This document shows, in pieces, positions 45-11,962 of a stretch of DNA of 12,596 bases (position 1 is the stretch's first letter; every line of letters begins with the position of its first letter). This stretch comes from a virus. Its lineage: Duplodnaviria > Heunggongvirae > Uroviricota > Caudoviricetes. The translations under genes and the position numbers were made by a program. The stretch is from IMG/VR virus record IMGVR_UViG_2695420714_000002. One strand, given 5' to 3'. The notes below the pieces were generated by a model that did no database searches, was not told where the DNA came from, and saw only the letters and a program-made list of their open reading frames with translations.

Positions 45-98
45 CCTGTTTACCTCTTTCTCAGGAAGTTTAGTCTCCAGGATTCCCGGGGCGGTTCA
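1..98 (-). mobile_element. Left end of an IS3-family insertion sequence (IS629/IS1203/IS3411-like), partial; continues beyond the left edge of the window
   Basis: The minus strand from position 98 reads TGAACCGCCCCGGGAATCCTGGAGACTAAACTTCCTGAGAAAGAGGTAAACAGG followed by ATGACTAAAAATACTCGTTTTTCCCCTGAAGTCCGTCAACGGGC. From memory this matches the terminal inverted repeat and orfA leader of IS629-type elements, including the TG terminus typical of the IS3 family. The IS terminal TGA supplies the stop codon of the adjacent 371-aa ORF. Confidence 0.75.
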
Positions 99-1211
99 GT
101 TATATCGCTTTCCTGCTGCCTCAATGAATTTTTGTTGCCCTTTAGTCGCAGATTCATAAAGCTGTTTATCAGAAATGCCACCCAGACCATCGCTAAATGT
201 TCTGACTAAATTTTCTCGTGCTTGTTGTTGATTCAGCCGATTCTTACCGGTTCCAAAAAAAGGAACTCTTTCGCCTAATGTCTGAGCCTGACTCTGCATA
301 AAGGTTTTATCTTTCAGCATGTCACTGGTCATTAACGGCAGATTTCTTTCCGATGCAAAGTCGACAGCAGCCTTTGCTTCAGGCGACATATCACCACGAA
401 CAGCCCTCGAAACCGCACTCGCTGTATTTTCCAGCCCCTTACCAATACCACCAATGCCAGCAGAAATTACCGTTTGTAACGGATCAATATCTTCTCCACC
501 AGCCTTGCTGGTGGCTCCCTGTAGTGCTAAATCTGTAGCTGCTGATTTTCCTATGGCACCAAGCACCGTTCCAGCCCTGCCCGCTGGTGTAAACGCCAGC
601 GCATTAGCCAGAAACGAAGTCAGGTCTTGCGGTGATAAACCCGGCTTGTTCAGGGCATAATCACCTGATGGCAGAGAAACGATAGTATTCCCCTTCTCAT
701 CCTGCCTTAATGTCGCCCCCATGCCCTGAAGAATCTTTTCCTGAGACGCGTCAGAGCCGAAAAGTTGAGACCATCCAGCCTTCAGGGCATCCATGCTTAG
801 TGAGTTCAATTCTGGGGCAGAGGCGACATTTTGCAGTCTCTCCATCTCTGGAGTCATTCGGCTTTCGCCTGTTATAGCATCGCGCATCGCAGTCCCAAGA
901 CTGGCTCCCTGTTCTGCTGAACGCTCAAGCCCCTCTCTTTGCTGAGTAGCTAACTTTGCATACCCTGACGCAAGAGAATTATCAGATGATGTATGTTGAA
1001 TATTTTGAGTTGCTGATTGGGAGCGGTCTATTTCATTCGTAGATGGTAGTGGATAGGCAGCATAAAAAGCCTGCTTAGCCTGCTCTACACTTTCTCCGGC
1101 TTGCGGGGCCACGACTTCATTGAAGTATTGCTCCTGAGCCTGCACTTTTTGTTCTGGTGCTAACGCCTGATACTGTGGAGAGGCGATAACATCTTTCCAT
1201 GCTTTAGCCAT
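96..1211 (-). CDS. Putative phage ejection (DNA-transfer) protein, P22 gp16-like by synteny, C-terminally truncated by the IS insertion (371 aa)
   Basis: Complete ORF in the track, last gene of a coupled four-gene cassette; its start overlaps the stop of the upstream gene by 1 nt. Ala/Gly/Gln/Ser-rich, low-complexity composition. The stop codon is the first 3 nt of the IS end, so the natural C-terminus is missing (P22 gp16 is about 609 aa, from memory). Assignment rests on size, order and composition only. Confidence 0.45.
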   Translation of the reverse strand: MAKAWKDVIASPQYQALAPEQKVQAQEQYFNEVVAPQAGESVEQAKQAFYAAYPLPSTNEIDRSQSATQNIQHTSSDNSLASGYAKLATQQREGLERSAEQGASLGTAMRDAITGESRMTPEMERLQNVASAPELNSLSMDALKAGWSQLFGSDASQEKILQGMGATLRQDEKGNTIVSLPSGDYALNKPGLSPQDLTSFLANALAFTPAGRAGTVLGAIGKSAATDLALQGATSKAGGEDIDPLQTVISAGIGGIGKGLENTASAVSRAVRGDMSPEAKAAVDFASERNLPLMTSDMLKDKTFMQSQAQTLGERVPFFGTGKNRLNQQQARENLVRTFSDGLGGISDKQLYESATKGQQKFIEAAGKRYN

Positions 1212-2632
1212 TAATCACCCCATAGTGAAGAAAAATTACTGCTGGCTGCTGGCTGTGATACCTGCTCAGATTGCGGCAATGTCTGCGACGAAGAAGAAGT
1301 TCCTCTGTCAACTGCTGAAATAACACGCAAAGCATCATAAGCTCGACCAGAAGCAGCTTTCAGCGAATTGAACTGGTTTTCCATCTTCCGGCGCTTGGTA
1401 TCAATGGTTTTTGTGGAGTCGCCAGGCTGAGGGAAATACATTTGATAATATTTTGACATTTCAGCAGGTACGATAGCTGCCCCTGTTTCCTGACGGAGTA
1501 TTGCCATTATTGCGTCATTAGCATTAACAACGTATTGCTGCTCTGTTGGGCTGAGCGTTAAGTTAGCCAGCGTCCCATTACCCAAAGCATTATTAATGAT
1601 CGCCACTCGCTGTGGGCTAAGCTGGCCTTTCAGTGTATCCATTGAATCAAGAGCATCCCTAACTCTGTATGCAAATCCAGCAGCTTTTTTAGCCCCTTCT
1701 GGCGACTTTTCCATGATCTTTTGGGCTGTTGGCAAAGCTATTGGACGAAACCCATCTCCAGATATTGGCTGGTTTAGTTTTCCCTGCTCTTCACTTCCGT
1801 CTGTGTAGTATTTTGTGACAGTGCCATCATCGTTTTCCCTAACACTCATTAATTTTTTGGCGTTTGTATTAATTCCAGCCGCTGCCGCAAATGCCGCTGC
1901 CCCCTCTGGATCCGCCTTTAACATTTGCGCGTACTGATTGTAATTCTGCATTGCGGCTGTTGGTGCATATGCTGACGTTAACGCATTTGCTCGGCTAATA
2001 TCCTGCCCTCTCGCCTGAAGCGCCTCTCCAGCCTGATTGCTGCGGATTGTCTCTGCCAACTTGCCACGCTCAATATCCCGACCTTCCATTCGATCTTTGA
2101 TATCGAAGTACTTCTCATGACCGAGAGAAAACAGTGCCATACTACCAGCAAGCCGCTGGAATTCCTGTGGATCATTAACATGCATTTCGGCAACAGACTC
2201 AGGAGAAATTCCCAAGCGACGCATTTCATCTTCGTTATCTGCTATGAATTTTCCAAATGCCCCAGTTCCGAGCGAAGATGCGATTTGAGCACTAGTCGCA
2301 AGATGACCAATAGAATTTCTCTGGTCGTCATCAATAAAGCCCATCCCTTTCTGAACGCTTTCAAATTCTTCTGGATACTCAGAAATAAGACTGCGCATTT
2401 TGTTTCTGTCTCCAGACTCAAAAGCCCCGGCATATGCTTTCTGAAACTCTGCTTTACGCTGTTGTTGACGTGCCTGCTGATTAATCTCAGCAACGCCTCT
2501 TAGCCCCTGTAGCGCCATTAAACCTACGTTTGGCTGCTGCTGAAACTGCACAGGCTGAGGAACGGAAGAACGAGGAGCATTATCATTTTGCGGTACCATG
2601 CTAGGCAGCCCGCCAAGTTGCCATGTCGCCAT
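1211..2632 (-). CDS. Putative phage ejection (DNA-transfer) protein, P22 gp20-like (473 aa)
   Basis: 473-aa ORF. Overlaps the upstream gene stop at 2632 and the downstream gene start at 1211 by 1 nt each. Size matches P22 gp20 (about 471 aa, from memory) and it sits between gp7-like and gp16-like genes. Gln/Ala-rich, predicted helical. No similarity search was possible. Confidence 0.5.
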   Translation of the reverse strand: MATWQLGGLPSMVPQNDNAPRSSVPQPVQFQQQPNVGLMALQGLRGVAEINQQARQQQRKAEFQKAYAGAFESGDRNKMRSLISEYPEEFESVQKGMGFIDDDQRNSIGHLATSAQIASSLGTGAFGKFIADNEDEMRRLGISPESVAEMHVNDPQEFQRLAGSMALFSLGHEKYFDIKDRMEGRDIERGKLAETIRSNQAGEALQARGQDISRANALTSAYAPTAAMQNYNQYAQMLKADPEGAAAFAAAAGINTNAKKLMSVRENDDGTVTKYYTDGSEEQGKLNQPISGDGFRPIALPTAQKIMEKSPEGAKKAAGFAYRVRDALDSMDTLKGQLSPQRVAIINNALGNGTLANLTLSPTEQQYVVNANDAIMAILRQETGAAIVPAEMSKYYQMYFPQPGDSTKTIDTKRRKMENQFNSLKAASGRAYDALRVISAVDRGTSSSSQTLPQSEQVSQPAASSNFSSLWGD

Positions 2633-3309
2633 TAGAATCCAAGCCCCCCAACAAGACCAATAAGCCCACCACCAATAGCCCCGGCGACATTACCTATACC
2701 CGGAACAACGGAACCAAGTTGCGCACCCGCTAAAGCGCCTGATGCCGCCCCACCAATACCACGCGCAAGACTGGATGGCTGCTGCGCCTGACCTGCACGA
2801 ATAGCGCCAAGCCCCTGCAAGAGTTGTCCGGTATTATTGGCGTAGTTTTGCCCTGCTGTTGCCTGCCCTGATGCCGCATTCATCCCGACATTTAGCAGGT
2901 TTCCATAATTTTGCATTTGCCCACTAAGCCAATTGTTATAAAGCATGGGCGCAATGGAAGATAACTGGTTACTGGTAGCTGTTGAGCCAAGCCCCCCGGT
3001 AGCTTCTGCTGAGACAAGGTTCTGATAACGGGCCTGATCTGCCTGTGTTTTATATAAACCAGAACCAAAGAAATCATTCGCGGCTTTATTCTGCCCTTCC
3101 AGAGTCATCAGTCCTTGTAGTTGTTGTAAAGCAGGCAATCCGACTTCTGCATACGGCTTGAGATTATTCATCACCGTATTCCACTGCTCGCGCTGCAAAT
3201 CAATTGCCTGCTGCTGGGCCTTCGCCTGAGCTTTAGAGGCACCACCATCACCGCCTTTTTCGTATACGGCACGATTGAGATGTTTATGAGCTATATGGGT
3301 AATTAACAC
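2632..3309 (-). CDS. Putative phage ejection (DNA-transfer) protein, P22 gp7-like (225 aa) with glycine-zipper hydrophobic C-terminus
   Basis: 225-aa ORF; P22 gp7 is about 229 aa (from memory). The C-terminal 40 residues are GIGGAASGALAGAQLGSVVPGIGNVAGAIGGGLIGLVGGLGF, a GxxxG-rich hydrophobic segment. Overlaps the upstream gene by 7 nt. Confidence 0.5.
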   Translation of the reverse strand: MLITHIAHKHLNRAVYEKGGDGGASKAQAKAQQQAIDLQREQWNTVMNNLKPYAEVGLPALQQLQGLMTLEGQNKAANDFFGSGLYKTQADQARYQNLVSAEATGGLGSTATSNQLSSIAPMLYNNWLSGQMQNYGNLLNVGMNAASGQATAGQNYANNTGQLLQGLGAIRAGQAQQPSSLARGIGGAASGALAGAQLGSVVPGIGNVAGAIGGGLIGLVGGLGF

Positions 3310-3764
3310 TCGCTGAATTCCTTATATTGTTGCCGAGTTAACTGATAAAGCGTTACGCCGACGGGTTTACCACATCTGATATAAGCATCATCAAGGTGAC
3401 CAACACGGGTAGCGCCAAGCAAACTGATAATTGCCCGTCCGTATTTCGTTGTGTCAGGAACCATGGTAATGCTGTTAAGGAATGGTGAGTTTTCGAGAAG
3501 CCATTTGCAGAATAATCGATGCCCTTGCAGTGCATATTCACCACGGAATCCGGGGTCGTACACCGCATGGCATTCAACAATGCTATGCCAGAAGTTACGC
3601 ACTTCATGAACGCCAGCCAGCACCAATCCTTCGTAGATACCGAGATATACCGCATCAGGCTTGATGTAGTACGTGTGCCCCGGCTCAACAATATTTTCGG
3701 TATTGCCAGGCTCGTTGAGAAAGGCCTGTAATCGCACAGGGTTATCAATAAATTTTAGTTCCAT
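3303..3764 (-). CDS. Hypothetical 153-aa protein, P22 gene-14-like position upstream of the ejection-protein genes (alternative: small acetyltransferase-like protein)
   Basis: 153-aa ORF, first large gene of the cassette; translation MELKFIDNPVRLQAF...YIRCGKPVGVTLYQLTRQQYKEFSEC. Weak SD (GGATGG) upstream of the ATG at 3764. The family assignment is an inference from synteny. Confidence 0.45.
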   Translation of the reverse strand: MELKFIDNPVRLQAFLNEPGNTENIVEPGHTYYIKPDAVYLGIYEGLVLAGVHEVRNFWHSIVECHAVYDPGFRGEYALQGHRLFCKWLLENSPFLNSITMVPDTTKYGRAIISLLGATRVGHLDDAYIRCGKPVGVTLYQLTRQQYKEFSEC

Positions 3765-3780
3765 GCGATGCCATCCATTT

Positions 3781-3942
3781 TCACATACAGCCTGCCAGCG
3801 CCTTATCTATTAACCCTCGTGCAATTTCATGCAGAGTTGGCGCTACTCCAATTCCTGATTTTTTACGCTGCTCTTCCTGAATTTTCTTTATCGCTTCCAT
3901 TTGCTTCTCACTTATCAATACCGGCTTTACTGAAATAGCCAT
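3781..3942 (-). CDS. Small 53-aa protein with ribbon-helix-helix-like residue pattern (not in the ORF track, below its size cutoff)
   Basis: ATG at 3942..3940 with a strong SD (AAGGGGG) about 5 nt upstream; stop TGA at 3783..3781, 16 nt before the 153-aa gene start. Translation MAISVKPVLISEKQMEAIKKIQEEQRKKSGIGVAPTLHEIARGLIDKALAGCM shows a short beta-strand-like segment followed by two helix-like segments, as in Arc/MetJ/CopG proteins. Confidence 0.45.
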   Translation of the reverse strand: MAISVKPVLISEKQMEAIKKIQEEQRKKSGIGVAPTLHEIARGLIDKALAGCM

Positions 3943-3969
3943 AACGCCCCCTTAGAACTGTATAAAACA

Positions 3970-4010
3970 ACAGTTATTATAGTTTCACAAATCGCAATAT
4001 TCATCATCGT
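3970..4010 (-). promoter_or_regulatory. Candidate sigma70-type promoter for the 53-aa ORF and ejection-protein cassette
   Basis: Minus-strand TATAAT (plus-strand attata at about 3976-3981) lies about 30 nt upstream of the SD of the 53-aa ORF. The -35 region is weak. A 6-bp inverted repeat AACTGT-N8-ACAGTT (about 3956-3975) overlaps the predicted transcription start. Confidence 0.3.
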
Positions 4011-4037
4011 AATTGCAAAATATGAAACAGATAGCAC

Positions 4038-4070
4038 AAAAAAATGCCACCGCTCAGTAGCTGGTGGCAT
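4038..4070 (-). terminator. Rho-independent terminator closing the primase operon
   Basis: 8-bp stem ATGCCACC/GGTGGCAT (about 4044-4051 and 4063-4070) with an 11-nt loop. On the minus strand it is followed immediately by a run of 7 T (plus-strand A7 at 4038-4044). Confidence 0.5.
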
Positions 4071-4262
4071 CGTTCTGTGTGTCAGGTTTTGACAGGTTTT
4101 TTATGGACTCTAAAAACTATATTTATGGTGTCGCATTACTCTTCACGGCAGGCGCTTTTCAGTTCTGCCCTTGCTTCTGGCTCCATTGGTAATTTGATTC
4201 GCGATCAGCTATGCGGATGGTTTGCTGAACAGGTATAACAACTTCTCAGGGGCTGTTTTCTG

Positions 4263-4340
4263 AACTACGAAAATTTCGTAGTGCTCACTTTCAAAAACGT
4301 CACGCCCTTGTACACAGGATTTTACGAAAGTCTCGTAAAA
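4263..4340. promoter_or_regulatory. Two related palindromic operator-like sites sharing the half-site TACGAAA
   Basis: Site 1 at about 4263-4283: aaCTACGAAA-a-TTTCGTAGtg. Site 2 at about 4320-4340: TTTTACGAAA-g-TcTCGTAAAA. Their centres are about 57 bp apart, in the non-coding region between the primase stop and the terminator. Confidence 0.4.
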
Positions 4341-4389
4341 CACTCTCTGATGCCAGCCAGGTGTTGTGCGCATCAATTCAGTCACATTG

Positions 4390-4501
4390 TGTTGGTTCAA
4401 AATACCGTGCTGTTGGTTCAGTGTTGGTTCAATAAAAAGAATAAAATTCTTATAAAACAATACTCTTTACAAATTGAACCAACTGAACCAACTGAACCAA
4501 C
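4390..4501. repeat. Iteron cluster: three direct and three tandem inverted copies of GTTGGTTCA flanking an AT-rich spacer; putative replication origin or cis-replication region
   Basis: TGTTGGTTCA at 4390-4399, 4411-4420 and 4422-4431. TGAACCAAC, the reverse complement, in perfect tandem at 4475-4483, 4484-4492 and 4493-4501. The roughly 43-bp spacer between them (4432-4474) is strongly AT-rich. The cluster lies directly downstream of the primase gene. Confidence 0.6.
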
Positions 4502-4526
4502 GCCTTTTCTACGCACATGAAGAAGC

Positions 4527-7286
4527 TCATTCTTCAGATGAGTTGTAATCTCCTGGCTGGTAATTGAGTACATAAACGTTTATTTGTCGTCCCTGAATAC
4601 GTGGTGATTTTCTTTGGTATCCACGACCGCTGTTTGGTGGGGTTAGCATCCCGGCTTTTTTCAACACTTCAGCAAACTGTTTTGCGTTGAAACCACATGC
4701 GATCTCCTTTTCAAATGTGGCCGGGAATGTGTAGAAAATCATTGGGCTTTCGTCATGTTCTCCACGCTGACGGTATCCGGCTAAATCTTTGATGGGCAAA
4801 TCTGCCGGGCTGTATGGAAATGGTGCAAAACGGCTAAGCCCATAGGCATTAAGAAATGCCTCCGTTTGTTCAATAATCTGCTGATGTTCTTTGTTACCTG
4901 TGCCGAACTCGCGCAACCATGCGTTATAGCTGTGCTGTATCGCATCACGGCATGTCTGAGCATCCCAGCCTGTTACAACCTCGCCTAACAGCAATGCGGC
5001 CTCCAGAATGGCAAATCGCGCGGCTACACGGTGAACCTGCTCACCATAATCGGATGGGATCAGACTTCTCCATCTGCTTTCGCAGTCACGAACAGTTTTA
5101 ATTGCCTGTTGCTGGTGGTCTGCCAGCCATTTAATCCACTCACGCCCGGCTGCGCCGTGGTGATGCTGGTAAGCGTCTTTCAGTGCGTCTGCGTGCTGTT
5201 TTCCGTTCTGGTAATCGTGAAAGCGTACTGCTTTACTCAACGGAATATTCAGCAGTCGCACCAGTTGCCCGGCTTTGGTTTTTCGCCCGGAAGTAGCGAT
5301 AAATGTTTCTAAATCCATTTCTCCGGTGCTGATTGCCACTGTACGCCAGCGTTTTAGATCCCGGTTTCCACCATCTTTAGCGCCTTGCAGTTTCCCTACA
5401 CCGTTAAATAACGCATAGGCAGACTGTGAAACACTGACAGGATCAGCGCCCTGACCAACTTCATCAAGCGGCATTAGTCCGTCATTGTGGGCGGCGGCTT
5501 CATTTGCCAGCCCCAGCGCGGTTCCGTACCACGTCAGCCGCAGTAAATCAGGGTTGCCGTATAAGCTGCTCGCCACGTTTGCCGTGGTGGTCTTACCTGC
5601 GCTCGACTGCTCATAGAAATGAATGCCGAACCCGTCAGCGCCCACCAGCCCAATCAATGGCGCTGCCAGTGCTGCGCCGATCCCGGTCATCATTGAATAG
5701 TTACCAAAGGCCAGACGCGCCACGTTATCACGCCAGCTTTTCGCGCTCCCTGAGACGGTATATCCGGCTGCGGCTGAGCTTCTCCCGCTGAACAGCACAG
5801 GATTTTCAGGTGTTCCGATGATTTCCCCATCAGGCATGATGTACGCTCCGCATTGCCAGCCAGTGGCATGAGCAACACGCCACAATTCACGAGAGCCACT
5901 GCGTTGTAGCCAGTCTGCCAGTATTGCTCTGAGGCTGCTTTTGGTCGTGACATTTACCCCACCAGCTTTAAGTGTGCGCCATCCTTCACGTTCACCAATA
6001 TCAGCCAGTGGAATGGCAGCGGTTGTCGGCGTTTCAGAACCAAACGACAGCCAGCGAAGAATGAGATACTGGTCTTTATCGTCTCTGCCAGTACCGATAA
6101 CGCTTAACGGAGAACATAACCAGCTTTCGTTATTGATGATTTCTCCACTCTGGCTGTCAGCTCTCGGAGATACCCAATAAATGCCATCCTCGCGGCTTTC
6201 TATTCTTGGTTTCAGTGGGTCGGTATCCATAACCTTAAAATCGCTTCCCTCAATGGTTTGTGGCTCCTGTTTCACGCCATTACCCTGTGGTTGGTACATT
6301 GACTTATTGAACGCTTCTGTGGCGCATTTAATGCCGTGTTTTTGGTGGTAATCATTCCAGTCTGCTTTGTGATCTGTCGGGGGTAATGCCACCCATCCAG
6401 AAACAGATAAAGCTGCTTTTTCTGCTGCTATTCTCCCCGTGTTTTGTCTTCCTTCGCTGTGGTCGTTATCCGCAGCAATGATGATTTGTGCTGAAGGAAA
6501 TTTATCCCGCAGTACCTGGGCGACATATAACAGGTTCCCGGCATCAATCGCCGCCACTGTCAGCGCCTCTGGACGCATTAAATGGGCAGATAATGCCGTT
6601 GCCAGCCCTTCTGCGATTAAGATGCTCTGTGTTGTTTCTGGTGCGTTTATGGCGTGATATGCCCCCCGCTTTGCTGAACCTATCAGGAGTCTTTTTTCAC
6701 CATGTGAGGTAATAGTCTGTGCTGCTGTTACTGCGCCGGATTTATCCACCAGCGCCAGCAACAGAGATCCATCGGGCAACACGGGGAATGTAAAATCACC
6801 TACCCCTTTCGCAACCAGATAATCAGATTTGCCGTTTACAGCCTTTCTGCGCATGTCATCAAACTGACGGGAAAACGTATCCCGTCTTTGTTGTTCGTCC
6901 TTCTCTGCCCTTTTCAGGCGCTCCTGTTCGCGTCGCTGGCGCTCGGTTTCCAGTTGTTCCCGTTTCTGGCTGGTGGCTTCTGGTGTTTCCGTTGTCCGGT
7001 AATCAATACCCAGAACATCAGCGGCAAGAAGCGCCGCCTCTGTTGTGTCGCAGTTATTTACGCGTTTAATTAAATCCAGCCCATCACCAGCGCCGCACTG
7101 ATTACAGATGAAGCTACCGCGCCCGTTGTCATCGAACCGGAATCGATCTTTGCCCCCACATGCAGGGCAGGGAGCATGACGGCGCGGAGAGTCAGGGACA
7201 TTTATGTTCAGGCAGCCCAGCACATGAGGCCAGTTGTTTTCAGACGCACTGATAACCTGACGGATAAGATCAATGTTTCGCATCAC
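4527..7286 (-). CDS. Phage/plasmid-type DNA primase with zinc-binding N-terminus, TOPRIM domain and C-terminal P-loop NTPase (P4 alpha-like architecture), 919 aa
   Basis: Zinc-finger-like CPACGGKDRFRFDD...CNQCG near the N-terminus; TOPRIM-like acidic motif IIIAADNDHSEG; Walker A-like FYEQSSAGKTT. The first codon is GTG at 7286 with an ATG at 7283; a G-rich SD lies upstream. The start overlaps the upstream 123-aa gene by 17 nt. Confidence 0.85.
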   Translation of the reverse strand: MMRNIDLIRQVISASENNWPHVLGCLNINVPDSPRRHAPCPACGGKDRFRFDDNGRGSFICNQCGAGDGLDLIKRVNNCDTTEAALLAADVLGIDYRTTETPEATSQKREQLETERQRREQERLKRAEKDEQQRRDTFSRQFDDMRRKAVNGKSDYLVAKGVGDFTFPVLPDGSLLLALVDKSGAVTAAQTITSHGEKRLLIGSAKRGAYHAINAPETTQSILIAEGLATALSAHLMRPEALTVAAIDAGNLLYVAQVLRDKFPSAQIIIAADNDHSEGRQNTGRIAAEKAALSVSGWVALPPTDHKADWNDYHQKHGIKCATEAFNKSMYQPQGNGVKQEPQTIEGSDFKVMDTDPLKPRIESREDGIYWVSPRADSQSGEIINNESWLCSPLSVIGTGRDDKDQYLILRWLSFGSETPTTAAIPLADIGEREGWRTLKAGGVNVTTKSSLRAILADWLQRSGSRELWRVAHATGWQCGAYIMPDGEIIGTPENPVLFSGRSSAAAGYTVSGSAKSWRDNVARLAFGNYSMMTGIGAALAAPLIGLVGADGFGIHFYEQSSAGKTTTANVASSLYGNPDLLRLTWYGTALGLANEAAAHNDGLMPLDEVGQGADPVSVSQSAYALFNGVGKLQGAKDGGNRDLKRWRTVAISTGEMDLETFIATSGRKTKAGQLVRLLNIPLSKAVRFHDYQNGKQHADALKDAYQHHHGAAGREWIKWLADHQQQAIKTVRDCESRWRSLIPSDYGEQVHRVAARFAILEAALLLGEVVTGWDAQTCRDAIQHSYNAWLREFGTGNKEHQQIIEQTEAFLNAYGLSRFAPFPYSPADLPIKDLAGYRQRGEHDESPMIFYTFPATFEKEIACGFNAKQFAEVLKKAGMLTPPNSGRGYQRKSPRIQGRQINVYVLNYQPGDYNSSEE

Positions 7287-7641
7287 CGTACCCCACGTGG
7301 TCTATAGCGTTTGCGATATGGCTAACCAGCATCTGCCACTTGGTTATTCCGTAATCAGTCAGCATGCCATCATTGTTTAGCCACATATCAAATTCAGCGG
7401 TTGTCGCAAGTTTCCACTTATCGCCGTGGACAGTCCTCATTGCTGGGTACATGAATGCGCAAATCAGATCACAAACATCTGACGGCTTCAGAGATGTAGT
7501 AATGGTGCGTCCCTCTGGCGTCTGAATTGCCATTTTCTCTTCACTAGTAGAATGAAGGTTATGAATCCACACAGCGCCAGCAATCTTTGCCACCTGCTCT
7601 CCGATTGCGGAGCTAAGCGCCATTTCTGCATTTTCACGCAT
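7270..7641 (-). CDS. Hypothetical protein (123 aa), translationally coupled to the primase
   Basis: ATG at 7641 with SD GGGAGG 5-6 nt upstream; 8-nt overlap with the upstream gene; the 3' end overlaps the primase start. Confidence 0.6.
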   Translation of the reverse strand: MRENAEMALSSAIGEQVAKIAGAVWIHNLHSTSEEKMAIQTPEGRTITTSLKPSDVCDLICAFMYPAMRTVHGDKWKLATTAEFDMWLNNDGMLTDYGITKWQMLVSHIANAIDHVGYGDAKH

Positions 7642-9062: not shown

Positions 9063-9253
9063 TTTTCACCCCCAAGAATTACCAGCTCTGCACGAGCATC
9101 GTTAACCAAAGATGAGCACGCTTTAATCGCATCCACGACATCAGCAGCGTCCATTTCTTCAGCCGAAAGACTGACAGCAACCAGGACAGCCGCTGCTTGC
9201 TCGATTAATTGAAGTGCGGACGTAAGTCGAGGGGCATTAATTGAGTTATTCAT
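9059..9253 (-). CDS. Hypothetical protein (about 64 aa; start re-called at the internal ATG, the track ORF extends to 9310)
   Basis: Internal Met ([10 protein letters not shown]...) at 9253 with AGGGG about 7 nt upstream and an 8-nt ATGAATAA-type overlap with the stop of the upstream 72-aa gene. The longer track start would overlap that gene by about 65 nt. Confidence 0.5.
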   Translation of the reverse strand: MNNSINAPRLTSALQLIEQAAAVLVAVSLSAEEMDAADVVDAIKACSSLVNDARAELVILGGEK

Positions 9254-9464
9254 TGGTTGCCCCTGTTTTTCCAGGCATTTCGCCACCTTCCAGCAGGAAA
9301 TGAACGTCACGAACGGCGAGATCCAATATCGCGAGTAACGCCTTCAGTTTTTCGTCTCGTGAGGGAGAGTTGCTCACCAGAATGTCATTAATCACTTCTG
9401 TCAGTGTGATGATCTGGCTTGTGCGTTCGAGGGGATCCATATGCACATCGTAGGTTTTAATCAT
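9246..9464 (-). CDS. Hypothetical protein (72 aa; [13 protein letters not shown]...), annotated here as an independent gene rather than the C-terminus of the 355-aa track ORF
   Basis: ATG at 9464 preceded by SD GGAGG with a 6-nt spacer. The start overlaps the stop of the 64-aa gene as ATGATTAA. The translated sequence is helical and protein-like, unlike the 355-aa frame immediately upstream of it. Confidence 0.6.
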   Translation of the reverse strand: MIKTYDVHMDPLERTSQIITLTEVINDILVSNSPSRDEKLKALLAILDLAVRDVHFLLEGGEMPGKTGATNE

Positions 9465-10313
9465 GTGCCACCTCCATGCGGATACGACCAGCAAAAAAGC
9501 AGACGTGATCGCGCACCAGAGAACGGCGAGCATCGCGTTCAGACTCGGCAGCAATATGATGAATTTTGGCGGTAATTGTCGGGCAATCGCGGCGAACTGC
9601 GGCGATAATCCAGATAAATTGCGGTTTTTGGGTAGGGGTAGTAGCCAGCATGTGGCAGCCTCCTTGTACTGGGAATTCTTCCCACCACCGGAGCTGCGAA
9701 ACTCGCTGGTGGTGGACTGAACAGAGTTCGCAGTACCGGCGTACAAGGAAACCGGCCAGCCTTTCGGCTGCCCTGTCCAGCCCACCATAATTTTGCAAGC
9801 GACGCGGATTATAACCACATCACTGAAAAAAGTGTGAGTCTGGCTAACGGCACAAAAAAAGACGCTCGGCGCGTCATGTGTCGCCTCGTACATTTCCGGG
9901 CTGCGAAACCCGGCACCCGTTTTATGAGGTGCCTTATAACCATAAACCGTGTTGCCGCATAACGACAAGCTCTTTTTTATGGACTCCGAAAACTCACTAT
10001 TGGAAGCACCAGATGCACAATACATCGCGCTCATTTCGTTAACGTCGCGCGTGTGGACGAAGGTTTTTGTGGAGCCACTACGCGAGCAGAGAAAGCCATC
10101 TACGACCAGAAATTCTCTGGCGCAGCCGCTGACCCTCTCAACGCTAACACCATCGACCGTAATTTCTGACATAGTTAAGGCATCCGCTCCTACCACCAGC
10201 AAATGATAAACCTTGCTTGCATCTGCTGTATTAATGCCTGATTTTGCTGTCATATTGCTGGATTTTTGCGACATACCAGCCAGTGAAAATATCTTCTTCT
10301 GGGCGGTTAGCAT
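9246..10313 (-). CDS. ORF with a strong start at 10313 (355 aa in the track); probably composite: an N-terminal hypothetical protein of about 150 aa that has lost its stop, or reads through, fused in frame across the leader to the 72-aa gene
   Basis: ATG at 10313 with SD GGAGG about 7 nt upstream and an ATGCTAA-type overlap with the upstream gene stop, so a real gene starts here. The frame stays open through a hairpin-T7 element, a TATAAT, a structured leader and the 64-aa gene in another frame. Both alternative frames hit stop codons shortly after the T7 tract. Confidence 0.3.
9457..9651 (-). CDS. Hypothetical protein (64 aa; [22 protein letters not shown]...), first gene of the small-gene/primase operon
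   Basis: Internal ATG of the 113-aa track ORF 9457..9798, preceded by a perfect SD (AAGGAGG) with about a 7-nt spacer. Its stop TAA overlaps the next gene's ATG. It lies in a different frame from the 355-aa track ORF, whose translation here is compositionally odd (Trp/Pro-rich). By my base count the ATG is at 9650..9648, one nt off the frame implied by the track. Confidence 0.5.
   Translation of the reverse strand: MLATTPTQKPQFIWIIAAVRRDCPTITAKIHHIAAESERDARRSLVRDHVCFFAGRIRMEVAHD
9653..9747 (-). promoter_or_regulatory. Structured 5' leader: nested hairpins with pseudoknot potential that occlude the SD of the 64-aa gene
   Basis: Outer 8-bp stem CCTTGTAC (9661-9668) with GTACAAGG (9740-9747); the mRNA arm overlaps the AAGGAGG SD. 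Inner 10-bp GC-rich stem 9681-9690 with 9705-9714, with a 14-nt loop. Loop sequence CTGCGAA (9694-9700) is complementary to TTCGCAG (9726-9732). Confidence 0.4.
9853..9874 (-). terminator. Terminator-like GC hairpin followed by a T7 run on the minus strand (candidate attenuator or intrinsic terminator)
   Basis: Plus-strand A7 at 9853-9859 followed by GACGC-tcggc-GCGTC at 9860-9874; on the minus-strand RNA this is a hairpin followed by UUUUUUU. The stem is only 5 bp, so this is weak. A TATAAT on the minus strand (about 9812..9807) follows it. Confidence 0.3.
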
Positions 10314-11327: not shown

Positions 11328-11759
11328 TTAGGCGGCGTTAAACGCGTCCGGGTAGAGTTTCAGAATGTCGGCAATTTCCTGCTGAGAAAGTCCGTTGTGA
11401 TCATTTATGTTCGCAAGATGGTTAACATGAGTGATCACTTTCAGAACATCACCACGGCAGGAGAAACGGTAGCGAAGGTGTGCTCCGATACCATCAGGAT
11501 TCTTTTCGTCGATACGCTCCAGAGTGATCCCAAGCTGGCGTTCTAACTCTGTTGCATAGTTACGACCAGAAGACAGACGGCAGTAGCGAAGAATGTCGTT
11601 TTCTGTCCATCCCTCTATACCAGTACGCAGCATATAGACTCGGGCGCGATGCTTTTTTGGTGTGCGCTTTGGTGCTTGAAGGGATTTTGTCAGGGGCGTA
11701 ACATCAGATACGCGAATATCTGAATTAGCCGCCTGTAATGGGCGGTTTTTCTTTTCCAT
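11328..11759 (-). CDS. Hypothetical protein (143 aa), translationally coupled to the AlpA-like gene
   Basis: ATG at 11759 overlaps the AlpA-like gene stop by 1 nt. Basic N-terminus (PKRTPKKHRAR). No recognisable catalytic motif. Confidence 0.55.
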   Translation of the reverse strand: MEKKNRPLQAANSDIRVSDVTPLTKSLQAPKRTPKKHRARVYMLRTGIEGWTENDILRYCRLSSGRNYATELERQLGITLERIDEKNPDGIGAHLRYRFSCRGDVLKVITHVNHLANINDHNGLSQQEIADILKLYPDAFNAA

Positions 11760-11962
11760 CAGGCCACCTTCCCGCGGCGTTCTGCCAGCCAGTTGTGAAT
11801 CTCAACCGCATCAAACGCAGTTATTTTTTCTCCCAGCTTTACCGGACGTGGTAGTGAACCGTTTCTTACTTTACGGTCGATGGTGGATACACTAACGCCC
11901 AGCAATTCAGCCAGGCGGAAGCGTCTGATATAGCCTTTTGTAGGAATAGTGTCGGTGTTCAT
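11759..11962 (-). CDS. alpA: AlpA-family (prophage CP4-57-type, excisionase-like) helix-turn-helix transcriptional regulator (67 aa)
   Basis: 67 aa. RFRLAELLGVSVSTIDRKVRNGSLPRPVKLGEKITAFDAVEIHNWLAER fits the AlpA pattern of an HTH followed by a conserved Pro/Lys segment and a C-terminal Trp-containing helix. First gene of the operon. Confidence 0.7.
   Translation of the reverse strand: MNTDTIPTKGYIRRFRLAELLGVSVSTIDRKVRNGSLPRPVKLGEKITAFDAVEIHNWLAERRGKVA

What the first reader, a model, noticed from the sequence alone, without database searches (positions are those of the whole stretch)
4390..4501. Iteron-type origin candidate directly downstream of the primase gene
Six copies of the 9-mer GTTGGTTCA: three direct copies (4390-4431, spaced 21 and 11 bp) and three perfect tandem inverted copies (4475-4501), flanking a roughly 43-bp AT-rich segment that could act as a DNA-unwinding element. 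Such an arrangement is far beyond chance in 12.6 kb. It is typical of iteron-bound origins; in P4 the ori and crr regions carry direct and inverted octamer iterons bound by the primase C-terminal domain. The adjacent primase is the most likely binder.
Basis: partly seen in the sequence, partly recalled or inferred. Interest (0 to 1): 0.6.

Follow-up and report, generated by a model that had tools for sequence, protein, structure and literature searches.

The report
Replication origin of a phage satellite
The repeats are real and are almost certainly the replication origin of a phage-parasitic island (a PICI-type satellite) in E. coli, recognised by the tail end of the neighbouring primase-helicase; this layout is already known for such islands, so it is a new example, not a new kind of thing.

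Summary
There are six exact GTTGGTTCA copies: direct at 4391, 4412 and 4423, and tandem inverted at 4475-4501. They flank a 43-bp spacer of 14% GC, and the cluster ends 25 bp after the primase stop codon.

The window is part of a ~19-kb E. coli island at yicC-dinD with the layout of a Gram-negative PICI satellite: int, alpA, Bro zone, pri, ori, late genes, perC.

In 56 of 58 related primase loci across Enterobacterales the same architecture follows the stop codon: 2-7 tandem 9-mers, a ~43-bp AT-rich spacer, then inverted copies at 11/21-bp pitch. The 9-mer falls into at least 8 sequence classes. Each class goes with a different short motif in the primase C-terminus (QRKSPR[IV] for GTTGGTTCA, QGRVRE for GTTGTCTCA).

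The helicase and C-terminal domain are homologous in sequence and predicted fold to SaPIbov1 Rep and Cch, whose winged-helix tail is reported to bind iterons placed in the same way.

The closest match is the SaPI/PICI origin; P4 is a looser analogue. Binding and replication remain untested.

Extra finding: an inverted second copy of the module lies 7.5 kb away, outside the window, next to perC.

Novelty: new member of a known kind.

The parts
4475..4501 (-). Primase-proximal iteron set: three perfect tandem copies of GTTGGTTCA as read on the primase-coding (-) strand, starting 25 bp after the stop codon
   Evidence: The equivalent tandem set (2-7 copies) is present 20-30 bp (46 bp in L045) after the stop codon in 56 of 58 homologous loci. 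L005 has 4 copies and L065 has 7.
4432..4474 (.). AT-rich spacer, 43 bp at 14% GC; candidate DNA-unwinding (melting) region
   Evidence: Spacer length (about 42-55 bp) and low GC (10-25% in the lowest 40-bp window) are kept in nearly all related loci. Part of it (TTATAAAACAATAC) is also conserved in sequence.
4391..4431 (+). Distal iteron set: three copies of GTTGGTTCA in the opposite orientation, start-to-start 21 and 11 bp (about two and one helical turns)
   Evidence: The 11/21-bp pitch is conserved in every iteron class. DNA homology with diverged relatives begins exactly at 4390 (H67/H68).
4527..7283 (-). pri-rep gene, 918 aa from the ATG at 7283 (the ORF list gives a GTG at 7286). It has a zinc ribbon, a TOPRIM primase, a DUF927 helicase and a C-terminal winged-helix-like domain. 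It is the inferred iteron binder and self-loading helicase.
4593..4613 (-). Codons for residues 892-898 (numbered from the GTG; RKSPRI), the segment of the predicted wing that covaries with iteron class; inferred specificity determinant
   Evidence: In the last 330 aa, the only columns that fully separate class A (39 sequences) from class B (6 sequences) are 840, 892-895, 897 and 911. QRKSPR[IV] is invariant in all class-A proteins; other classes carry other motifs.
11759..11962 (-). alpA-type regulator; with pri it marks the element as a Gram-negative PICI-type satellite (int lies just outside the window)
   Evidence: PF05930, E 2e-8. Island annotation in L001. Layout compared with the published PICIs EcCICFT073 and EcCIRM13514 and with PMC10111431.

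Best explanation
The repeat cluster at 4391-4501 is the vegetative replication origin of a PICI-type phage satellite integrated between yicC and dinD.

Proposed mechanism. After induction, the unidirectional alpA...pri operon produces the 918-aa Pri-Rep protein. Its C-terminal winged-helix-like domain recognises the 9-11-bp iterons. The contact is probably made through the wing segment around residues 892-898 (RKSPRI). Two iteron sets point toward each other across a 43-bp, 14% GC spacer. They position helicase oligomers on either side, the spacer melts, and the DUF927 helicase loads itself without DnaA or a loader. The protein's own TOPRIM domain lays down primers for the host polymerase.

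Shown here: the repeats, their conservation, the concerted change of all copies together with a protein motif, the homology to SaPI Rep/Cch, and the predicted fold.

Inferred: binding, melting, self-loading and origin activity.
For: (1) Exact six-copy cluster far beyond chance.

(2) Of 58 primase homologues from many Enterobacterales genera, 56 carry the same layout after the stop codon: tandem 9-mers, a ~43-bp AT-rich spacer, then inverted 9-mers at 11/21-bp pitch.

(3) Among 41 class-A loci, iteron positions are 96% conserved, against 70% for the rest of the module and 48% for the flanks.

(4) There are at least 8 iteron classes: GTTGGTTCA, GTTGTCTCA, GTCGGTTCA, ACGGGTTAC, GGTCGGGTA, GTGGGTTAT, ACTTATCCC and GGTCGGTTT. 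In each locus all 6-12 copies share the class. Each class goes with its own C-terminal motif or motifs.

(5) Class B, D and F proteins are 87-94% identical to class-A proteins in the core (residues 595-830). In residues 880-905 they are only 24-76% identical (24-32% for D and F). Specificity therefore changes locally.

(6) Residues 403-814 match SaPIbov1 Rep in sequence (8tch, E 1e-11). The modelled C-terminus matches Cch, SaPIbov1 Rep and a DNA-bound wHTH.

(7) Published work. SaPI origins lie immediately downstream of rep. They have iterons on both sides of an AT-rich centre, with at least two on each side pointing in opposite directions, and are bound by the Rep C-terminal WHD without ATP (PMC9371898). 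Gram-negative PICIs have the same origin organisation, and the EcCICFT073 pri-ori segment drove plasmid maintenance (PMC6092414).

(8) The island has the PICI gene order and sits in a published PICI attachment region.

(9) No DnaA box lies nearby, consistent with a self-loading initiator.
Against: There is no binding, footprinting or replication assay for this Pri-Rep family; all support is comparative.

The covarying protein segment is encoded only ~90 bp from the iterons. Part of the association could therefore reflect co-transfer by recombination and not functional matching. However, the intervening codons and the 25-bp linker stay similar between classes A and B while all 6-12 iteron copies change together.

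The mapping is not a simple code. Class C iterons occur with three different motifs: RKTPRI, RKTLRI and RKSLRI.

Two homologues (L054, L061) have no iteron cluster within 3 kb.

The model of the C-terminal fragment has only moderate overall confidence (pLDDT 76, pTM 0.55), although the last ~70 residues exceed 90.

The published, tested E. coli PICI origin (EcCICFT073) belongs to an unrelated primase family.
Confidence: 0.85

Rival explanations
1. The repeats are operator sites for transcriptional control, by Pri-Rep or another protein, of the genes downstream of the origin (late genes, ssb, perC). They would not be, or not only be, a replication origin.
For: The second module in the same island ends 37 bp upstream of the perC start codon. 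In loci with the 12-iteron version, the distal tandem set is always followed by a conserved promoter-like TTTTGCTTATATATA and then a gene start.
Against: In the window's own cluster the tandem set abuts the 3' end of pri, not a gene start. The other side is followed by ~450 bp with no annotated gene. The simple sigma-70 scan found no promoter in 3700-4700 or around the perC module. The AT-rich centre flanked by opposed iterons directly after rep is the published origin layout. The two roles are not exclusive.
Confidence: 0.2
2. The inverted repeats act as a nucleic-acid hairpin: an RNA stem that terminates or stabilises the pri transcript, or a single-strand DNA hairpin.
For: The region folds into a long hairpin as RNA (-50.4 kcal/mol, z -5.5) and as ssDNA (-28 kcal/mol, z -6.4).
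Against: No U-tract follows the stem. Terminator-like hairpins with T-runs lie further downstream on the same strand, at 4030-4061. Copy numbers on the two sides are unbalanced in relatives (2-7 tandem copies against 3). Extended origins contain further direct copies with no partner. Across 41 loci the sequence itself is conserved, not just the pairing. The 11/21-bp pitch and the protein covariation point to recognition of duplex DNA.
Confidence: 0.05
3. The cluster is a packaging (pac/cos), partition (centromere-like) or recombination site and not an origin.
For: Iterated short repeats also occur in plasmid centromeres and in terminase small-subunit binding sites. The left edge of the cluster coincides with a homology breakpoint.
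Against: There are no par genes or terminase genes in the island. The repeats track the primase gene across genera regardless of the neighbouring cargo. The covarying protein is the primase-helicase.
Confidence: 0.03

Closest known systems
SaPI replication origins (SaPIbov1, SaPI1, SaPI5) with Rep / PriRep initiators
   Different: The host is Gram-negative. The iterons are 9-11 bp, not 5-6 bp, and have unrelated sequences. The proximal set is a strict head-to-tail tandem array at 9-bp pitch. The primase is a TOPRIM/zinc-ribbon type resembling P4 alpha. Function has not been tested.
Gram-negative PICI origins, e.g. EcCICFT073 pri-rep-ori (Fillol-Salom et al. 2018, PMC6092414)
   Same: Same element type and gene order: int, alpA, Bro-zone genes, DUF4222, pri, ori, (ssb) perC, late genes. 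The origin follows pri, with iterons flanking an AT-rich stretch. A published PICI occupies the same yicC-dinD site.
   Different: The EcCICFT073 primase (D5_N/DUF5906/Pox_D5, 584 aa) is unrelated to the window's TOPRIM-DUF927 protein, and its iterons differ (CTGTCTACC-like). None of six published E. coli PICIs checked carries the DUF927 type. Here the late genes are P22-type ejection genes, and the origin module is duplicated.
Satellite phage P4 ori and crr with the alpha protein
   Same: The primase-helicase-origin-binding functions sit in one polypeptide. The N-terminal primase region is 33% identical over residues 8-362. In P4, short repeats in direct and inverted orientation lie immediately after the alpha stop codon (crr, 4291-4590), with a second cluster kilobases away (ori, 9086-9809). 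The window's island likewise has two clusters 7.5 kb apart. P4-type C4/isrK immunity RNAs are present.
   Different: The repeat is a different sequence and length (P4: 8-mer 'type 1' repeats). P4 crr is a duplicated 120-bp unit. The helicase and C-terminal parts do not align with alpha, and the P4 origin-binding domain was not among the top structural matches. Whether both clusters are needed here is unknown.
Iteron plasmid origins (RepA/pi/TrfA type; PMC4980987)
   Same: Both have multiple short repeats bound by the element's own initiator next to an AT-rich unwinding element.
   Different: Those origins use 17-22-bp direct repeats, DnaA boxes and a non-helicase WH-WH Rep that needs DnaA, DnaB and DnaC. 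Here the repeats are 9 bp in opposed sets, no DnaA box is nearby, and the initiator is itself a helicase-primase.

Membership tests
SaPI/PICI-type replication origin | Located immediately 3' of the rep or pri-rep gene | tested here: met
   The cluster ends 25 bp after the stop codon. The same position is seen in 56 of 58 homologous loci.
SaPI/PICI-type replication origin | [quoted passage not shown] | tested here: met
   Three plus three copies in opposite orientation around a 43-bp, 14% GC spacer. The definition is taken from PMC9371898 and PMC6092414.
SaPI/PICI-type replication origin | The cognate initiator is a Rep-type self-loading helicase with a C-terminal winged-helix DNA-binding domain | tested here: met
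SaPI/PICI-type replication origin | The initiator binds its own iterons specifically, and the rep-ori segment replicates autonomously | not testable with these tools
   Indirect support only: iteron class covaries with the C-terminal motif.
Gram-negative PICI (element) | int, alpA and pri are present, transcription is unidirectional, and the origin lies downstream of pri | tested here: met
   int and all island genes from int through the ejection genes are on one strand in L001. alpA is PF05930. For pri and the origin, see the rows above. Criteria are from PMC6092414 and PMC10111431.
Gram-negative PICI (element) | Helper-phage-dependent induction, packaging and transfer | not testable with these tools
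   The island has no capsid, tail or terminase genes; the only virion genes are P22-type ejection genes. At least 120 IMG/VR contigs carry the tandem iteron, but that does not show packaging.
P4 ori/crr system | Alpha-type protein throughout (primase, helicase, C-terminal origin-binding domain) | tested here: not met
   Only residues 8-362 align with P4 alpha. The helicase and CTD belong to the DUF927 / SaPI Rep lineage.
P4 ori/crr system | P4 type-1 octamer repeats in both ori and crr | tested here: not met
   The repeat here is a different 9-mer. P4 repeat positions were read from the record.
P4 ori/crr system | Two separated cis-acting repeat regions, both required for replication | tested here: inconclusive
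   Two six-copy modules lie 7.5 kb apart in the island (L001 13180-13300 and 20692-20802). Whether both are required is untested. Many relatives have a single contiguous 12-iteron region instead.
Classical iteron plasmid origin | 17-22-bp direct repeats plus DnaA boxes and a non-helicase Rep | tested here: not met
   The repeats are 9-mers in opposed sets. There is no DnaA box within the region. The initiator carries helicase and primase domains.

The most novel reading that the evidence does not exclude
The origin may be a swappable specificity cassette and a recombination hot spot. The last ~40 codons of pri plus the iterons would move together, creating at least 8 mutually incompatible replicon types. 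In this island a block of P22-type ejection genes would have been captured inside an ancestral 12-iteron origin. That would leave two inverted half-origins 7.5 kb apart, which now work as a P4-like ori/crr pair. The perC-proximal half would also put the virulence-linked regulator PerC under Pri-Rep control.
Probability: 0.2. Interest if true: 0.55.

Novelty: new member of a known kind. Interest (0 to 1): 0.35.

Why it matters
It assigns a concrete origin and a candidate recognition motif to a Pri-Rep family. That family is present in about 7% of complete E. coli genomes (356-405 of 5426) and across Enterobacterales, and no origin for it turned up in the papers I searched.

The natural series of at least 8 iteron/motif pairs on an otherwise 85-95% identical scaffold is a ready-made system for studying how winged-helix initiators read DNA. 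It could also predict incompatibility between co-resident satellites.

The practical uses are modest: better annotation of satellites, and a compact Pri-ori cassette for vectors.

It does not change the current picture of how PICIs replicate.

Tried and rejected
- Chance or low complexity: rejected by shuffles and by the Poisson estimate.
- Coding sequence: the ORFs overlapping the repeats (4281-4520 +, 4209-4460 -, 4418-4573 -) are not annotated in RefSeq. The region evolves as repeats plus spacer, so these ORFs were not pursued.
- Intrinsic terminator: there is no T-run after the hairpin, and the terminator scan placed candidates elsewhere.
- DnaA-dependent origin: no DnaA box nearby.
- Known RNA family: the Rfam gathering-threshold search found nothing at 4390-4501.
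- Phage relatives: megablast of 3700-7400 against the phage collection gave one irrelevant 39-bp hit.
- Literature search for the 9-mer itself returned only noise. A search for the P4 octamer returned nothing useful, so the P4 GenBank annotation was used instead. A search for PDB code 8TCH found no paper.
- Sequence search of the C-terminal 279 aa against the PDB found nothing. Only fold comparison linked it to Cch and SaPI Rep.
- The published att core for the yicC-dinD PICI (GAGCAGATTCAA) is absent from L001, so the island boundaries were not defined.
- The search for homologous proteins returned mostly fragments. They served as the alignment for the structure model but not for context analysis.

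Full report
**1. Observation**

The window holds exactly six perfect copies of GTTGGTTCA, all between 4391 and 4501.
- Three are on the + strand, starting at 4391, 4412 and 4423.
- Three are on the - strand, as an uninterrupted tandem array at 4475-4501.

The 43 bp between the two sets (4432-4474) are 14% G+C, against 48.5% for the window. From base composition, about 0.1 exact copies are expected in the whole window. The chance of five further copies within 112 bp is about 4e-18. No shuffle reached the observed count.

**2. Context**

The repeats begin 25 bp after the stop codon (4527-4529) of a 918-aa protein on the - strand. The protein has a primase zinc ribbon, a TOPRIM domain and a DUF927 helicase domain.

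The window is 99.9% identical to a chromosomal island found in several hundred complete E. coli genomes. In strain D8 the island lies between dinD and yicC. Reading along the coding strand, it contains:
- an integrase;
- an AlpA-type regulator;
- AntA, DUF4222 and Ash genes (the 'Bro zone'), with Rfam C4 and isrK RNAs inside the Ash gene;
- small ORFs;
- the primase;
- the repeats;
- P22-type ejection genes (gp14, gp7, gp20 and a gp16-position gene);
- a perC-family gene.

This is the published gene order of Gram-negative phage-inducible chromosomal islands (PMC6092414; PMC10111431). A published PICI, EcCIRM13514, occupies the same yicC-dinD site with a different primase.

**3. Comparative test of the repeats**

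A scan of one genome per species returned 77 loci encoding relatives of the primase. I located the stop codon in 58 of them and examined the following 450 bp.

Fifty-six carry the same layout:
- 20-30 bp after the stop (46 bp in L045), 2-7 head-to-tail 9-mers;
- an AT-rich spacer of about 43 bp;
- the same 9-mer in the opposite orientation, at start-to-start distances of 11 and 21 bp.

Many loci extend this to about 12 copies over 300 bp, ending in a second tandem set that points back toward the first. Two loci (L054, L061) have no such cluster within 3 kb.

Among 41 loci that use GTTGGTTCA, drawn from many genera, iteron positions are 96% conserved. The rest of the module is 70% conserved and the flanks 48%. 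An E. coli strain has four tandem copies where the window has three.

**4. Concerted change and the binder**

The 9-mer is not always the same. At least eight classes occur: GTTGGTTCA, GTTGTCTCA, GTCGGTTCA, ACGGGTTAC, GGTCGGGTA, GTGGGTTAT, ACTTATCCC and GGTCGGTTT. Within a locus all 6-12 copies share the class.

The class tracks a short motif about 25 residues from the primase C-terminus.
- All 39 class-A proteins read QRKSPR[IV].
- All six class-B proteins read QGRV-RE.
- Classes D and F, whose iterons share a GGGTTA core, read K(K/R)KAL(K/R)(K/R).
- Class G reads QIRTPRLKH.

In the last 330 residues, the only alignment columns that fully separate class A from class B are 840, 892-895, 897 and 911, numbered from the GTG at 7286.

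Class B, D and F proteins are 87-94% identical to class-A proteins across residues 595-830. That is inside the spread among class-A proteins themselves (median 82%). In residues 880-905 they fall to 24-76%. Specificity therefore changes locally on a conserved scaffold.

One caveat applies. The motif is encoded about 90 bp from the iterons, so co-transfer by recombination contributes to the association. Against that, the simultaneous change of every iteron copy, with the intervening codons and linker staying similar between classes A and B, is hard to explain without selection for a match.

**5. What the protein is**

Residues 403-814 match the SaPIbov1 replication initiator (8tch, E 1e-11) and the SCCmec helicase Cch (5dgk) in sequence.

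I built an AlphaFold model of residues 641-919 from a 33-sequence alignment. Mean pLDDT is 76, and above 90 for the last ~70 ordered residues. The model has a helical bundle followed by a strand-helix-helix-hairpin unit. Its best structural matches are:

The covarying motif falls in the hairpin after the second helix, i.e. in the wing. The N-terminal 360 residues resemble the primase part of P4 alpha (33% identity), but the rest does not.

**6. Comparison with what is known**

SaPIs. The origin lies immediately downstream of rep and has 6-12 short iterons split around an AT-rich centre. At least two iterons on each side point in opposite directions. Rep binds them through its C-terminal winged helix without ATP and loads itself. 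In SaPI5 the primase and Rep are fused (PMC9371898).

Gram-negative PICIs. Fillol-Salom et al. report the same origin organisation and showed that the EcCICFT073 pri-ori segment supports plasmid maintenance (PMC6092414). I read that origin in CFT073. It has CTGTCTACC-type repeats around an AT-rich stretch after an unrelated D5_N-type primase. Six published E. coli PICIs that I checked carry D5_N-type or RepA-type initiators, none the TOPRIM-DUF927 type. DUF927 primases have been noted in satellite surveys.

P4. Its record annotates crr, with direct and inverted 8-mers, directly after the alpha stop codon, and ori 4.5 kb away.

Classical iteron plasmids. These differ in repeat length, orientation, DnaA boxes and initiator type. 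No DnaA box is near the cluster.

**7. Rival explanations**

The opposed repeats can fold into a long hairpin as RNA or ssDNA. Five points argue against a hairpin role:
- no U-tract follows the stem;
- terminator-like hairpins lie further downstream on the same strand, at 4030-4061;
- copy numbers on the two sides are unbalanced in relatives;
- unpaired direct copies exist in the extended origins;
- the sequence itself is conserved, not just the pairing.

An operator role is plausible as an additional function. It would apply to the distal tandem sets, which always precede a conserved TTTTGCTTATATATA and a gene start. It is less likely for the window's cluster, which abuts the 3' end of pri.

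Packaging, partition and attachment roles have no supporting genes and do not explain the link to the primase.

**8. Beyond the window**

The same island holds a second module of six exact GTTGGTTCA copies at L001 13180-13300. That is 7.5 kb from the first, about 3 kb beyond the window's left end, and ends 37 bp upstream of perC.

It is an inverted copy of the first module, with an identical AT-rich core and tandem set but 21/21-bp spacing where the first has 21/11. Relatives without the ejection-gene block have one contiguous 12-iteron origin between pri and ssb-perC. DNA homology with diverged relatives starts exactly at 4390. This suggests that the late-gene block sits inside a formerly contiguous origin. 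I did not test whether the two halves cooperate as P4 ori and crr do.

**9. Verdict**

The primase is the likely binder, through its C-terminal winged-helix wing.

The feature is a member of the known SaPI/PICI origin type, attached to a Pri-Rep family whose origin I did not find described in the papers searched. Interest is moderate to low for the origin itself. It is somewhat higher for the natural iteron/motif series and the split, duplicated origin.

Noticed in passing
L001 13180-13300 (about 3 kb beyond the window's left end; same island): A second module of six exact GTTGGTTCA copies: three tandem, a 43-bp AT-rich spacer, then three inverted at 21/21 bp. It is an inverted copy of the window's module and ends 37 bp upstream of the perC start codon. 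The same perC-proximal module is found in other E. coli islands (L003, L004).
   Followed up: partly
window 96-3764 (- strand): P22-type ejection genes: gp14 (DUF2824), gp7, gp20 (Inj_translocase) and a gp16-position gene that runs past the window's left end. The island has no capsid, tail or terminase genes. This is an unusual 'late zone' cargo for a satellite and hints at a P22-like helper.
   Followed up: no
window 9705-9792 and 9855-9932 (- strand), inside the Ash-family gene 9246-10313: Rfam C4 antisense RNA (81 bits) and isrK (69 bits). These are the P4 CI / seqA-type immunity RNA pair, embedded in a Bro-network gene as described for P4 and some PICIs.
   Followed up: no
L002 2800-2860; L025, L046, L050, L057, L060, L067 about 300-340 bp after the primase stop; L001 13150-13180: The distal tandem iteron set is always followed within ~5-10 bp by a conserved TTTTGCTTATATATA-like element and then a gene start (ssb or perC). 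This may be a promoter under Pri-Rep control. The simple sigma-70 scan did not call it.
   Followed up: partly
window 4502-4526 and the equivalent 20-30 bp (46 bp in L045) in L019, L045, L046, L050: The short linker between the stop codon and the first iteron carries a conserved, partly palindromic TTCTCACATGTGAGAAAA-like motif in many loci (CTTCATGTGCGTAGAAAAGG in the window). Its role is unknown.
   Followed up: no
L005 720-755; L065 (after the primase stop): The tandem iteron copy number varies between close relatives: 4 copies in E. coli 2014C-3057 and 7 in an Erwinia MAG, against 3 in the window.
   Followed up: partly
L054 and L061 (Yokenella regensburgei; Serratia sp.): These two primase homologues have no iteron cluster within 3 kb on either side. 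L061's C-terminal motif resembles class C. The origin may have been lost or relocated.
   Followed up: partly
L037 3001-6866 (Yersinia pekkanenii): The match to the primase spans ~3.9 kb where ~2.76 kb is expected, and a protein from this contig is named an HNH endonuclease domain protein (P0116). This suggests a ~1.1-kb insertion, possibly a homing element, within the primase gene.
   Followed up: no
window 3943-4390: About 450 bp between the origin and the next annotated gene has no annotated feature. It contains terminator-like hairpins on the - strand (4030-4061) and a palindromic TACGAAAATTTCGTA / TACGAAAGTCTCGTA pair (4266-4280, 4323-4337).
   Followed up: no
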